64,000 nt of DNA from a virus. The notes beneath the pieces are model-generated. The model saw only the letters and a list, made by a program, of their open reading frames with translations, made no database searches and was not told the origin of the DNA. The DNA lies in the IMG/VR virus record IMGVR_UViG_3300045988_051359; one strand, 5' to 3'. This document shows, piece by piece, positions 52,456 to 52,746 of this stretch. Every line of letters starts with the position of its first letter. Position 1 is the stretch's first letter. The translations under genes and the position numbers were made by a program.

Positions 52456-52746
52456 TCAGTAATTTCCTACTAATTTAAGTTTCTTGAACATGCGACCATC
52501 ATCTTGTAATGCAATTGCTGTTAATTGGTTATTAAGGTCTGGTTCACGGAATGTAGAATAATCCTTATTAGTAAGGTCTAATCTAACTCTCCATTTATCC
52601 AAGTCGGCATATAAGTAGATAAGATAGCTGTTGTTCCAATCCTGATTAGGATGTTCTAACAGCCACTGTGCTACTGCATGACCACCTTGTACACAACCAT
52701 AAACTGCATCAAGCTTCTGGTCTATCAGCACATACAGCCTCTTCAT
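52456..52746 (-). CDS. PTH2-like peptidyl-tRNA hydrolase (putative)
   Basis: 'MKRLYVLIDQKLDAVYGCVQGGHAVAQ' parallels the Pth2 'VRTDLKMGKGKIAAQ.AHA' motif; 'TAIAL' near the C-terminus. Uses the ATG at 52746 (track shows a TTG at 52761). Confidence 0.45.
   Translation of the reverse strand: MKRLYVLIDQKLDAVYGCVQGGHAVAQWLLEHPNQDWNNSYLIYLYADLDKWRVRLDLTNKDYSTFREPDLNNQLTAIALQDDGRMFKKLKLVGNY

What the first reader, a model, noticed from the sequence alone, without database searches (positions are those of the whole stretch)
52456..52746. PTH2-like peptidyl-tRNA hydrolase embedded in the tRNA cluster
The N-terminal segment matches the Pth2 signature (…KLDAVYGCVQGGHAVAQ…). A phage-borne PTH would recycle tRNAs from stalled or prematurely released peptidyl-tRNA, for example during suppressor-tRNA activity or host ribosome-targeting defence. 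Its location among tRNAs strengthens the inference.
Basis: inference. Interest (0 to 1): 0.5.

Follow-up and report, generated by a model that had tools for sequence, protein, structure and literature searches.

The report
Mini PTH2-like gene wedded to suppressor tRNA
The flagged gene is a real, stripped-down phage relative of peptidyl-tRNA hydrolase 2, and in many unrelated phages it sits directly in front of a stop-codon suppressor tRNA, which points to a so far undescribed helper of stop-codon read-through.

Summary
The ORF at 52456-52746 (- strand, 96 aa) is real and under purifying selection (dN/dS 0.10-0.14). At family level the homology holds: 53 of 95 relatives hit PF01981, hhalign to solved PTH2s gives 96%, and Foldseek ranks only PTH2-fold structures on top. 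It is a minimised, phage-restricted 'EPD-type' branch. The Q-x-x-H-A core is kept. The residue aligned to the catalytic Lys is Tyr, the one aligned to the Asp is an invariant Glu, and the Thr loop is deleted. Hydrolase activity is therefore inferred, not shown.

The main result concerns context. In 42 of 48 protein lineages from IMG/VR, a suppressor tRNA (anticodon CUA, once UCA) follows within 1 kb on the same strand; in 30 lineages it lies within 50 nt. In the window it lies 121 nt downstream. A basic helical-hairpin protein of unknown family ('X') precedes the gene in 42 of 48 lineages, but it is broken by a deletion in this window. Canonical phage PTH2 genes show no such linkage (0 of 8). 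Only about 10% of sampled suppressor tRNAs carry the cassette. I found no paper describing this linkage. Most likely the protein is a tRNA-ester hydrolase acting as an accessory to stop-codon suppression.

The parts
52456..52746 (-). CDS of the 96-aa EPD-type mini-PTH2 protein (MKRLYVLIDQKLDAVYGCVQGGHAVAQ...EPDLNNQLTAIAL...KLKLVGNY)
   Evidence: ORF and homologues. AF2 model with pLDDT 85.7 and pTM 0.80. The top 9 PDB hits are all PTH2-fold, and 23 viral PTH2-like hits have probability 1.0. hhalign to solved PTH2s gives 96.2%, E 2.6e-9. dN/dS is 0.10-0.14. Family invariants are Q20, H23, A24, E68 and T76; near-invariants are W37, N39, F66, P69 and D70.
52262..52334 (-). Suppressor tRNA with anticodon CUA (reads UAG), 121 nt downstream of the CDS on the same strand
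   Evidence: ARAGORN. Rfam tRNA model 56.8 bits, E 3e-11. The same gene-then-suppressor order holds in 42 of 48 lineages. Its acceptor stem is ordinary: G1:C72, discriminator A.
52335..52455 (-). 121-nt spacer between the CDS stop and the suppressor tRNA
   Evidence: No terminator-like site was found between them, which is compatible with co-transcription. In other phages the spacer is often 0-15 nt.
52709..52880 (-). Remnant (pseudogene) of the upstream partner gene 'X-like'. A 34-aa ORF at 52776-52880 is followed by the out-of-frame 3' part that overlaps the mini-PTH2 start.
   Evidence: Close relatives carry an intact 112-115-aa ORF here (L001:9691-10038). The window lacks about 180 nt between two GAAATTA repeats, and the junction shifts the frame. 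This is the positional equivalent of family X, which is found upstream in 42 of 48 lineages. Sequence similarity to X is weak: hhalign E 0.003, probability 11%. The low coordinate is inferred from the 38-nt overlap seen in L001.
52117..52180 (-). Tentative HDV-like (theta-type) ribozyme, 82 nt downstream of the suppressor tRNA
   Evidence: Rfam RF02682 scores 38.1 bits, below the gathering score of 44, with E 3.9e-5 in a 1.4-kb search. Theta ribozymes are reported next to phage tRNAs, and every fifth of those is a suppressor (PMC10879173). Not followed up.

Best explanation
The ORF encodes a minimised (96 aa), near-neutral, phage-restricted member of the PTH2 (peptidyl-tRNA hydrolase 2) superfamily. 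I call this branch 'EPD-type' after its invariant Glu-Pro-Asp motif.

It is the middle element of a conserved cassette. First comes a small basic helical-hairpin protein X. Next comes the mini-PTH2. Last comes a stop-codon suppressor tRNA. The three are probably transcribed together, with the tRNA cut out of the 3' end of the message.

Proposed function. The protein hydrolyses the ester bond between a tRNA 3' end and its peptidyl (or N-blocked aminoacyl) group. It would act as an accessory to stop-codon suppression, clearing peptidyl-tRNAs and stalled products that arise when the phage's suppressor tRNA overrides UAG termination. Examples are drop-off at slowly decoded UAG codons and read-through to mRNA ends. 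It would work alongside the phage's own tmRNA. Basic X would supply the RNA or ribosome contact that the lysine-poor catalytic domain has lost.

What is shown: homology and fold, selection, the cassette architecture and its specificity. What is inferred: hydrolase chemistry, the substrate, co-transcription and the role of X. In this particular window X is broken, so here the enzyme would have to act alone or less well.
For: Homology.
- 53 of 95 family members hit PF01981, best E 6.8e-8.
- The family profile hits solved Pth2 chains 24bt_A and 2zv3_A at about 7e-5.
- hhalign gives 96.2%, E 2.6e-9.
- Foldseek PDB top 9 are all PTH2-fold with probability 1.0; the next hit has probability 0.09.
- BFVD returns viral 'peptidyl-tRNA hydrolase' entries with TM 0.75-0.83.
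- The polar invariants Q20, H23, E68, D70, T76 and N39 sit at positions homologous to the PTH2 active-site region.

Linkage to the suppressor tRNA.
- In 80 IMG/VR loci chosen by protein only, falling into 48 clusters at 70% identity, 42 have a suppressor tRNA within 1 kb downstream on the same strand. 30 have it within 50 nt.
- There are 55 distinct suppressor tRNA sequences.
- In 13 loci the suppressor is the only tRNA in about 10 kb.
- One locus has an opal (UCA) suppressor instead.
- Lak megaphages have a UUA suppressor 0.6-0.7 kb upstream.
- Mycobacterium phage IkeLoa gp151 is in the same family (98.4%) and is followed by an annotated tRNA(cta).

Specificity.
- 0 of 8 canonical phage PTH2 loci have a suppressor tRNA nearby.
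- Several phages carry both types.

Partner X.
- X lies upstream in 42 of 48 lineages and usually overlaps the mini-PTH2 start.
- Three long family members (P0128, P0180, P0196; 237-247 aa) carry N-terminal extensions with X-like motifs, by eye, which I read as X-PTH2 fusions.
- Median pI is 9.5 for X against 6.4 for mini-PTH2 and 9.4 for solved Pth2s.

Rescue context.
- A tmRNA gene lies 5.5 kb away in the window, and tmRNA genes lie near the cassette in 6 other loci.
Against: - The window protein itself has no PF01981, NCBIfam or PDB sequence hit.
- The position aligned to the catalytic Lys of Sulfolobus Pth2 is Tyr (68 of 95) or Gln (16 of 95). Thr90 lies in a 4-residue deletion, and Asp86 aligns to Glu. 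The chemistry could therefore differ or be lost.
- The host's own Pth1 should already clear free peptidyl-tRNA.
- About 90% of sampled phage suppressor tRNAs lack the cassette (9 of 92), so it is not needed for suppression as such.
- X is a pseudogene in this window. Metagenomic variants with in-frame deletions that remove Q20 and H23 exist, which suggests dispensability in this lineage.
- No in-frame TAG genes are seen in the window, so recoding of this phage is not shown.
- No enzymatic data exist.
Confidence: 0.45

Rival explanations
1. Suppressor-specific deacylase or 'governor'. The mini-PTH2, targeted by X, hydrolyses the aminoacyl (not peptidyl) ester of the suppressor tRNA itself. It would either proofread mischarged suppressor or hold suppression down until the right time in infection, and so set the fidelity or timing of UAG read-through.
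For: - The dependence is one-way. The protein almost never occurs without a suppressor tRNA (42 of 48), while suppressors mostly occur without it.
- The active site is remodelled relative to canonical Pth2, and the protein coexists with canonical PTH2 in the same genomes. Both argue for a different substrate.
- The suppressor tRNAs differ in acceptor stem and discriminator base (A 29, T 13, G 11, C 3), so charging may be ambiguous.
- Borges et al. list the mechanism of code change as an open question.
Against: - The linked tRNAs share little beyond the stop anticodon loop, so specific recognition would have to go through the anticodon. There is no evidence for that.
- Producing a tRNA and its own deacylase from one transcript looks wasteful.
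- No in-frame TAG genes are seen in the window.
- No biochemical data exist.
Confidence: 0.2
2. Ordinary housekeeping peptidyl-tRNA hydrolase. It is just a small phage PTH that boosts general tRNA recycling. It sits next to the suppressor tRNA only because both travel in tRNA arrays or in one mobile cassette.
For: - PTH2 genes are already known in jumbo phages and in cluster C mycobacteriophage tRNA arrays, where they are interpreted this way (PMC7824862; PMC3622015; PMC5966550).
- The window's tRNA region is a hot spot for homing endonucleases and rearrangements.
Against: - Canonical phage PTH2 genes are not next to tRNAs at all in 7 of 8 loci, and never next to a suppressor.
- In 13 lineages the suppressor is the only tRNA within about 10 kb.
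- The adjacency persists while the proteins diverge to about 40% identity and the tRNAs to 55 different sequences.
- Phages carrying both PTH2 types argue against redundancy.
Confidence: 0.15
3. Non-catalytic PTH2-fold binder (pseudo-enzyme). Together with X it binds the suppressor tRNA's 3' end, or the ribosome or release factor. It would protect or deliver the suppressor, or help it compete with RF1, without hydrolysing anything.
For: - The catalytic Lys and the Thr loop are lost.
- The protein is near neutral and lysine-poor, unlike canonical Pth2.
- It is tightly paired with a basic helical partner of unknown fold family.
Against: Seven invariant or near-invariant polar residues (Q20, H23, N39, E68, D70, T76, plus W37) lie at positions homologous to the PTH2 active site. 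That pattern is more typical of catalysis than of binding alone. No homology to any RF-binding protein was found.
Confidence: 0.12
4. Not a gene: a chance ORF between tRNA genes.
For: It is short (96 aa) and has no direct database family hit except PHROG 3668.
Against: - There are 839-853 homologues.
- dN/dS is 0.10-0.14.
- The fold is predicted with confidence.
- Synteny is conserved.
Confidence: 0.01

Closest known systems
Archaeal/eukaryotic peptidyl-tRNA hydrolase 2 (Pfam PF01981; M. jannaschii MJ0051 2zv3, S. solfataricus 1xty, human PTRH2/Bit1 1q7s)
   Same: - Same alpha/beta fold: TMq 0.6-0.69, probability 1.0.
- Homologous by profile comparison.
- Shared motifs: hydrophobic beta1 plus R-x-D-L, the Q-x-x-H-A helix, an acidic residue at the end of beta3, the T-A-x-A strand and the C-terminal L-x-L.
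   Different: - 96 aa against 115-120 aa.
- Helix 2 and the beta3-beta4 hairpin are shortened.
- The residue aligned to Lys18 is Tyr or Gln, Thr90 is deleted, and Asp86 aligns to Glu. The catalytic roles of those three residues are recalled from Fromant et al. 2005 and could not be checked in the library.
- New W-x-N and E-P-D motifs.
- pI about 6.4 against 9.4.
- No PF01981 hit for this protein.
- Phage-restricted: only 3 MAG contigs in the genome collection.
Canonical PTH2 of large phages (RaK2 ORF188, Myrna gp36, Atu_ph07, phiM12 gp226; Iyer et al. 2021, PMC7824862)
   Same: These are phage-borne PTH2-fold proteins and the structurally closest hits, with TMq 0.74-0.83. They are proposed to recycle peptidyl-tRNA during ribosome rescue.
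   Different: - They keep the canonical Lys-containing motif and are found by tblastn with MJ0051.
- 0 of 8 lie near a suppressor tRNA.
- Several phages have one of each type.
'Peptidyl tRNA hydrolase' of Bixzunavirus (cluster C1) mycobacteriophages, e.g. IkeLoa gp151; PTH2-like gene of cluster C tRNA arrays (Morgado & Vicente 2018, PMC5966550)
   Same: - Same EPD-type family: hhalign 98.4%, E 7.7e-15, with the Q..HA, W..N and EPD..TA motifs.
- It sits in a tRNA array and is followed 250 nt later by an annotated tRNA(cta).
   Different: - 124 aa, and only about 34% identical to family members.
- The upstream gene gp150 is not an X homologue.
- The paper notes the gene in about 96% of these arrays but does not mention the suppressor.
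DUF2000 / Atu0240 (PDB 2gax)
   Same: It is the best single Foldseek PDB hit, E 3.1e-4, with a PTH2-like fold.
   Different: TMt is only 0.50 and identity 13%. No DUF2000 Pfam match appears among the families hit by the 95 members, whereas PTH2 is hit by 53.
'Code-change module' of TGA-recoded Jade phages (suppressor tRNA + TrpRS + RF1; Borges et al., bioRxiv 10.1101/2021.08.26.457843)
   Same: Protein genes are physically grouped with a suppressor tRNA, written in standard code, and thought to serve stop-codon reassignment.
   Different: The proteins differ: no aaRS or RF was seen among the window ORFs scanned. That paper does not contain the word 'hydrolase'.
Bacterial ribosome-rescue hydrolase ArfB and the tmRNA system (a 'works like' comparison only)
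   Same: The proposed logic is the same: an ester-hydrolase module plus a basic helical element that handles peptidyl-tRNA on stalled translation complexes. A phage tmRNA lies nearby.
   Different: There is no homology, because ArfB uses a GGQ release-factor domain. Ribosome binding by X is pure inference, and X has no significant structural match.

Membership tests
PTH2 (Pfam PF01981) | The protein matches the PF01981 profile at or above the curated threshold | tested here: not met
   There is no PF01981 hit for the window protein even at E<=10, and no NCBIfam hit. None of the 120 closest homologues carries a precomputed Pfam domain.
PTH2 (Pfam PF01981) | Remote homology to PTH2 by family profile or profile-profile comparison | tested here: met
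   53 of 95 diverse family members hit PF01981 at E<=1, best 6.8e-8. The A2 profile hits Pth2 chains 24bt_A (7.1e-5) and 2zv3_A (7.8e-5). hhalign against 5 solved Pth2 sequences gives 96.2%, E 2.6e-9.
PTH2 (Pfam PF01981) | PTH2 alpha/beta fold (four-stranded sheet with flanking helices) | tested here: met
   The AF2 model has pLDDT 85.7 and topology b-a-b-a-b-b. The Foldseek PDB top 9 are 2gax, 2zv3, 1q7s, 1rlk and 3erj, with probability 1.0 and TMq 0.59-0.69, followed by a sharp drop. BFVD viral PTH2 hits reach TMq up to 0.83. Helices 2 and 4 are reduced.
PTH2 (Pfam PF01981) | Catalytic lysine of the G-K-G-K motif (Lys18 in S. solfataricus Pth2; role recalled from Fromant et al. 2005, not verified in the library) | tested here: not met
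   The aligned position is Tyr16. Across 95 members it is Y 68, Q 16, L 4, S 4 and H 2, with no Lys.
PTH2 (Pfam PF01981) | Catalytic aspartate of the D-A-G-x-T motif (Asp86) and Thr90 (roles recalled, as above) | tested here: inconclusive
   Asp86 aligns to the invariant Glu68, and a near-invariant Asp70 follows two residues later. Thr90 falls in a 4-residue deletion of the beta3-beta4 loop. An acidic residue is kept, but the motif is different.
PTH2 (Pfam PF01981) | Conserved Q-x-x-H-A motif on helix 1 | tested here: met
   VQGGHA in the window against AQGGHA in MJ0051. Q20, H23 and A24 are invariant in 95 of 95 members.
PTH2 (Pfam PF01981) | Hydrolysis of peptidyl-tRNA or N-acetyl-aminoacyl-tRNA | not testable with these tools
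   This needs an enzyme assay or complementation of pth(ts).
DUF2000 (Atu0240-like, PDB 2gax) | Sequence-profile membership | tested here: not met
   The similarity is at fold level only. DUF2000 is not among the Pfam families hit by the family members, whereas PTH2 is hit by 53.
EPD-type, suppressor-tRNA-linked mini-PTH2 (operational family defined here; includes PHROG 3668 and Bixzunavirus 'peptidyl tRNA hydrolase') | Motifs Q-x-x-H-A, W-x-N, F-x-E-P-D and T-A-x-A in a protein or domain of about 95-125 aa | tested here: met
   All are present in the window protein: Q20/H23/A24, W37/N39, F66/E68/P69/D70 and T76/A77/A79. PHROG 3668 hits at E 3.7e-8.
EPD-type, suppressor-tRNA-linked mini-PTH2 (operational family defined here; includes PHROG 3668 and Bixzunavirus 'peptidyl tRNA hydrolase') | Stop-codon suppressor tRNA within 1 kb downstream on the same strand | tested here: met
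   The tRNA(CUA) lies at 52262-52334, 121 nt after the stop. The family-wide figure is 42 of 48 lineages.
EPD-type, suppressor-tRNA-linked mini-PTH2 (operational family defined here; includes PHROG 3668 and Bixzunavirus 'peptidyl tRNA hydrolase') | Intact upstream partner gene X (basic helical hairpin, about 100 aa) | tested here: not met
   The window has only a 34-aa frameshifted remnant. Relatives have an intact 112-115-aa X-like ORF. That ORF's homology to X is itself weak: E 0.003, probability 11%.
Phage 'code-change module' (Borges et al.) | Suppressor tRNA grouped with an aminoacyl-tRNA synthetase and/or a release factor | tested here: not met
   The suppressor tRNA is present. No aaRS or RF domain was found in the 30 ORFs of the window that were scanned. 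Not every ORF was scanned.

The most novel reading that the evidence does not exclude
X and the EPD-type mini-PTH2 form a dedicated two-protein accessory system for stop-codon suppressor tRNAs. It would be a new component of phage genetic-code manipulation. Possible roles are a suppressor-directed ester hydrolase that sets the fidelity or timing of UAG/UGA read-through, or a suppression-coupled rescue factor. The system would be shared by gut phages, Lak megaphages, environmental jumbo phages and culturable mycobacteriophages.
Probability: 0.25. Interest if true: 0.85.

Novelty: new variant of a known kind. Interest (0 to 1): 0.6.

Why it matters
Phage suppressor tRNAs and stop-codon recoding are well documented. 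How phages run or tolerate the code change is explicitly listed as an open question (Borges et al.).

This work finds a protein pair that is almost never seen without a suppressor tRNA. It is conserved while both the proteins and the tRNAs diverge strongly, and it is distinct from the canonical phage PTH2. That makes it a concrete candidate component of suppression.

The same arrangement occurs in Bixzunavirus phages of Mycobacterium smegmatis, so the idea can be tested by ordinary phage genetics. It would also correct annotation. Thousands of 'hypothetical' 95-100-aa proteins could be named. The label 'peptidyl-tRNA hydrolase' used for the mycobacteriophage members would gain a caveat, because the catalytic lysine is missing.

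If the link proves to be mere hitchhiking, the gene is just one more phage PTH2-like protein, and that kind is already known.

Tried and rejected
- Direct single-sequence searches (Pfam, NCBIfam, PDB sequences) gave no PTH2 hit. The only results were a sub-threshold Imm53 hit at 0.017 and noise. A profile of 16 close relatives also failed against PDB sequences. Only the diverse 95-sequence profile worked.
- Literature check of the Pth2 catalytic residues: four searches or reads did not yield the Fromant 2005 data. Those residue roles therefore rest on my recollection.
- Hypothesis that the linked suppressor tRNAs are poor substrates for host Pth1 because of an unusual 1:72 pair: rejected. 44 of 56 have G1:C72 and the rest are also paired. 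Discriminator bases vary.
- Hypothesis that the window's phage is visibly TAG-recoded: not supported in these 64 kb. TAG ends 12 of 81 ORFs and no gene needs TAG as sense. Comparing code 11 with code 15 coding coverage in the 10-kb loci was uninformative.
I used a 16-sequence subset instead.
It was done after a homologue search.
- Fold search of X gave only generic helical hairpins at E>1.8, including seryl-tRNA synthetase arms, which is not significant. X has no Pfam or PHROG family.
- The afdb50 fold library was unavailable.
- IkeLoa gp150 and the N-terminus of XacN1 ORF364 are not detectable X homologues.
- The sigma-70 promoter scan was at chance level and is not suited to a probable Bacteroidota phage.
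- The nearest nucleotide matches in the INPHARED phage collection covered tRNA genes only, so the phage itself is not identified.
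Full report
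**The object.** Window 52456-52746 on the - strand is an ATG-initiated ORF of 96 codons plus a stop. The ORF listing extends it to a TTG at 52761, but all homologues begin MKRLYVL/MQRLYVL at the ATG. It lies in a stretch where every gene and 27-28 tRNA genes are on the - strand.

It is a real gene:
- A word-indexed search finds 839 homologues.
- An exhaustive profile search finds 853 cluster representatives at E<=0.001, almost all 90-130 aa.
- dN/dS against relatives is 0.10 (L001) and 0.14 (L043).
- The closest cluster, P0001 (96% identical), occurs on hundreds of gut-metagenome contigs up to 232 kb. Near-complete contigs are 182-203 kb.
- No named phage is close at the DNA level. The nearest named protein relatives are in Prevotella Lak megaphages, at 43-53% identity.

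There is no PF01981 hit at E<=10, no NCBIfam hit and no PDB sequence hit. The only result is PHROG 3668 'hydrolase' at 3.7e-8.

Homology appears once the family is used:
- I aligned 95 diverse members (A2). Of these, 53 hit PF01981 individually, best 6.8e-8, and no other Pfam family is hit by more than 4.
- The A2 profile finds solved Pth2 chains 24bt_A (7.1e-5), 2zv3_A (7.8e-5), 1rzw and 1xty.
- hhalign of A2 against five solved Pth2 sequences gives 96.2% probability, E 2.6e-9.
- An AlphaFold2 model (pLDDT 85.7, pTM 0.80) has the order strand-helix-strand-helix-strand-strand.
- The nine best Foldseek PDB matches are all PTH2-fold proteins: Atu0240/DUF2000 and Pth2 from M. jannaschii, human, T. 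acidophilum and A. fulgidus. Their probability is 1.0 and TMq 0.59-0.69. The tenth hit has probability 0.09.
- Against viral models there are 23 hits with probability 1.0. They include annotated peptidyl-tRNA hydrolases of phages Myrna (TMq 0.83), RaK2 (0.78), VH7D and Atu_ph07, and of giant viruses.

Superfamily membership is therefore well supported.

**How it differs from Pth2.** The protein is about 20 residues shorter. The second helix and the beta3-beta4 hairpin are trimmed.

Retained features:
- the hydrophobic first strand;
- the Q-x-x-H-A motif (VQGGHA here, AQGGHA in MJ0051);
- the T-A-x-A strand;
- the C-terminal L-x-L.

Changed features:
- The position aligned with the lysine of the G-K-G-K motif (Lys18 of Sulfolobus Pth2) is Tyr16. 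Across the family it is Tyr 68, Gln 16 and never Lys.
- Asp86 aligns with the invariant Glu68 of an E-P-D motif.
- Thr90 falls in a four-residue deletion.

The catalytic roles of Lys18, Asp86 and Thr90 are my recollection of Fromant et al. 2005. I could not confirm them in the library.

The family has its own invariant polar set: Q20, H23, E68 and T76 in 95 of 95 members, and W37, N39, P69 and D70 in at least 93 of 95. That pattern fits an active enzyme with a remodelled site better than a decayed one. This is an inference.

The family's median pI is 6.4, against 9.4 for the solved Pth2 sequences. In the window's own sub-branch, the R-x-D of the first strand is swapped to D-x-K.

**The context is specific.** I collected IMG/VR contigs encoding relatives, selected by protein motifs only (398 confirmed, best 80 kept), and scanned them for tRNAs.

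- In 74 of 80 loci the nearest downstream tRNA on the same strand is a stop-codon suppressor.
- After clustering the proteins at 70% identity there are 48 lineages. 42 have the suppressor within 1 kb and 30 within 50 nt, often 0-15 nt after the stop codon.
- One of the six exceptions is a locus that ends right after the gene.
- The suppressors comprise 55 different sequences with varied acceptor stems and discriminator bases. They share the anticodon loop CU-CUA-AA.
- Among 232 tRNAs in the 48 representative loci, anticodon CTA occurs 42 times. The next most common anticodon occurs 12 times.
- In 13 loci the suppressor is the only tRNA in about 10 kb.
- One lineage has an opal suppressor (UCA) instead.
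- Lak megaphages have a UUA-anticodon tRNA 0.6-0.7 kb upstream, and a 462-kb huge phage has tRNA(CUA) 0.8 kb downstream.
- In the window the suppressor (52262-52334; Rfam tRNA 56.8 bits) is 121 nt downstream, with no terminator-like site between.
- The family is essentially absent from cellular genomes: 3 MAG contigs.

**Controls.**
- Canonical phage PTH2 genes were found by tblastn with MJ0051: Myrna gp36, RaK2 ORF188, Atu_ph07, Baka gp70, phiM12 gp226, Astolliot and two huge phages. None of the 8 has a suppressor tRNA within 3 kb, and 7 have no tRNA at all.
- Three phage groups carry both a canonical PTH2 and an EPD-type copy: LR756500, Stenotrophomonas RAS14/CM1 and Xanthomonas Xoo-sp13. 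This argues that the two types are not redundant.
- For the converse test I sampled phage suppressor tRNAs by a DNA pattern. Of 92 tRNA(CUA) genes with enough upstream sequence, 9 have the mini-PTH2 within 1.5 kb, and 7 of those also have X.

The dependence is therefore one-way. The protein needs a suppressor tRNA next to it, but suppressors usually do without the protein. That is the signature of an accessory factor.

**A second partner.** An all-against-all comparison of ORFs in the 48 representative loci found one further conserved family, X, in 42 of them. It is always directly upstream and usually overlaps the mini-PTH2 start by 4-80 nt.

- X is about 100 aa and basic, with median pI 9.5.
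- It carries the motif Y-R-H-x-H-I-A-Y-C-x-L-R-G-R-x-x-E-Q-I-E.
- It has no Pfam or PHROG family, and its 79 database homologues are almost all unnamed or 'hypothetical'.
- Its model (pLDDT 92) is a long helical hairpin followed by two short helices, with no significant structural neighbour.
- Three long family members (P0128, P0180, P0196; 237-247 aa) carry N-terminal extensions with X-like motifs, by eye. I read them as X-PTH2 fusions.
- In the window's lineage the positional equivalent is a 112-115-aa ORF, with only weak similarity to X (E 0.003, probability 11%).
- In the window itself this ORF is destroyed. A deletion of about 180 nt between two GAAATTA repeats shifts the frame and leaves a 34-aa ORF at 52776-52880. 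A contig encoding an identical mini-PTH2 (L046) still has it intact.

**Culturable members.** Mycobacterium Bixzunavirus phages annotate gp151-155 as 'peptidyl tRNA hydrolase'. IkeLoa gp151 belongs to the EPD-type family (98.4%, E 7.7e-15). It is followed 250 nt later by an annotated tRNA(cta).

**Literature.**
- PTH2 in jumbo phages is known (Iyer et al. 2021; RaK2).
- A PTH2-like gene in cluster C mycobacteriophage tRNA arrays has been noted, without mention of suppressors.
- The recoding survey of Borges et al. describes a suppressor tRNA + aaRS + RF module and does not contain the word 'hydrolase'. Neither does the theta-ribozyme paper.
- No paper in the library holds both 'suppressor tRNA' and 'PTH2'.
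- The library is incomplete, so 'unreported' is provisional.

**Mechanism.** What is shown: homology and fold, purifying selection, the three-part cassette, and its specificity and one-way dependence.

What I infer as most likely (about 0.45): the protein is a tRNA-ester hydrolase acting as an accessory to suppression. It would remove peptidyl-tRNAs or stalled products generated when UAG termination is overridden. X would provide RNA or ribosome contact. The phage tmRNA at 58290-58805, and tmRNA genes near the cassette in six other loci, fit a rescue theme.

Observations that cut against this reading:
- the loss of the catalytic lysine;
- the existence of host Pth1;
- the broken X here;
- metagenomic variants with in-frame deletions that remove Q20 and H23;
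- the lack of evidence that this phage is recoded. TAG ends 12 of 81 ORFs in the window, often with a back-up stop 1-7 codons later.

Rival readings:
- a suppressor-directed aminoacyl deacylase or 'governor' (0.2);
- an ordinary housekeeping PTH that merely hitchhikes (0.15);
- a non-catalytic binder (0.12).

**Verdict.** As a phage PTH2-like gene it is a known kind. The EPD-type branch, with its partner X and its near-obligate coupling to suppressor tRNAs, is a new variant. It is worth experimental follow-up in mycobacteriophages.

Noticed in passing
window 58290-58805 (-): Phage-encoded tmRNA. Rfam RF00023 scores 55.7 bits against a gathering score of 47. ARAGORN missed it in the window scan. 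It lies about 5.5 kb upstream of the mini-PTH2. tmRNA genes also lie within 5 kb of the cassette in IMG/VR loci L007, L036, L037, L048, L060 and L078.
   Followed up: partly
window 52117-52180 (-): Sub-threshold HDV-like ribozyme match (RF02682, 38.1 bits against a gathering score of 44, E 3.9e-5). It sits between the suppressor tRNA and tRNA-Ile and may be a 'theta' ribozyme of the kind reported next to phage suppressor tRNAs.
   Followed up: no
window 56665-56762 (-): Strong match to the RAGATH-34 RNA motif (86.9 bits against a gathering score of 60.7). It abuts or overlaps the start of tRNA-Pro(agg) at 56598-56669.
   Followed up: no
window 54503-54572 (-): An extra tRNA-like gene found by the Rfam tRNA model (40.6 bits) but not by ARAGORN.
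   Followed up: no
window 52709-52880 (-); L001:9691-10038: The gene upstream of the mini-PTH2 (112-115 aa in relatives) is inactivated in this window by a deletion of about 180 nt between GAAATTA direct repeats, plus a frameshift. A contig encoding an identical mini-PTH2 (L046) keeps it intact. This is therefore a strain-level deletion or an assembly artefact.
   Followed up: yes
homologues P0006, P0013, P0024, P0027, P0036, P0040, P0043, P0079, P0088, P0112 and others: Many metagenomic variants of this gene carry short in-frame deletions, for example loss of YGCVQGGHAV, which removes invariant Q20 and H23. Others are fused to upstream ORFs. The deletions look like events between short direct repeats. 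Several variants recur on 3-10 contigs. The locus appears to be a deletion hot spot.
   Followed up: partly
L001-L004 downstream of the gene; window 50262-50558 (-): HNH, GIY-YIG and PD-(D/E)XK homing-endonuclease-like genes are variably inserted between the tRNA genes of close relatives. The window lacks the GIY-YIG/HNH insert after the suppressor tRNA but has a PDDEXK_5 ORF at 50262-50558.
   Followed up: no
window, - strand ORFs (e.g. 60686-61039, 35909-36316, 365-685, 54660-56399, 43560-44456, 16641-17033, 7621-8202): TAG is used as a stop in 12 of 81 ORFs of at least 80 aa. It is frequently followed by a TAA or TGA back-up stop within 1-7 codons, as would suit a genome that expresses an amber suppressor. 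No gene in the window needs TAG read as sense.
   Followed up: partly
window 685-2073, 54681-56399, 40445-41599, 45049-47037, 38471-39910 (all -): Other notable genes are an RNA ligase (phrog_968), a 572-aa 'RNA-binding protein' (phrog_850, with a weak DUF2828 hit), an adenylosuccinate-synthetase-like protein, an SPFH/Band 7 protein and an AAA ATPase. Several of them are interleaved with the tRNA genes.
   Followed up: no
L085 2341-2413, L086 2237-2309 (Prevotella Lak phages): In Lak megaphages the tRNA linked to the homologue has anticodon TTA (ochre type) and lies upstream rather than downstream of the gene.
   Followed up: partly
L094 2461-3300 (XacN1 ORF364); L087 2515-3300 (RAS14): In Xanthomonas and Stenotrophomonas jumbo phages the EPD-type domain is the C-terminal part of a 260-280-aa protein with no tRNA nearby. 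XacN1 has a 'glutamyl-tRNA amidotransferase' four genes upstream, and RAS14 has a 'valyl-tRNA synthetase' two genes downstream.
   Followed up: no
window protein residues 9 and 11: The family consensus R-x-D in the first strand (R 65 of 95, D 61 of 95) is replaced by D-x-K in the window's sub-branch. This is a reciprocal charge swap and suggests a structural salt bridge.
   Followed up: no
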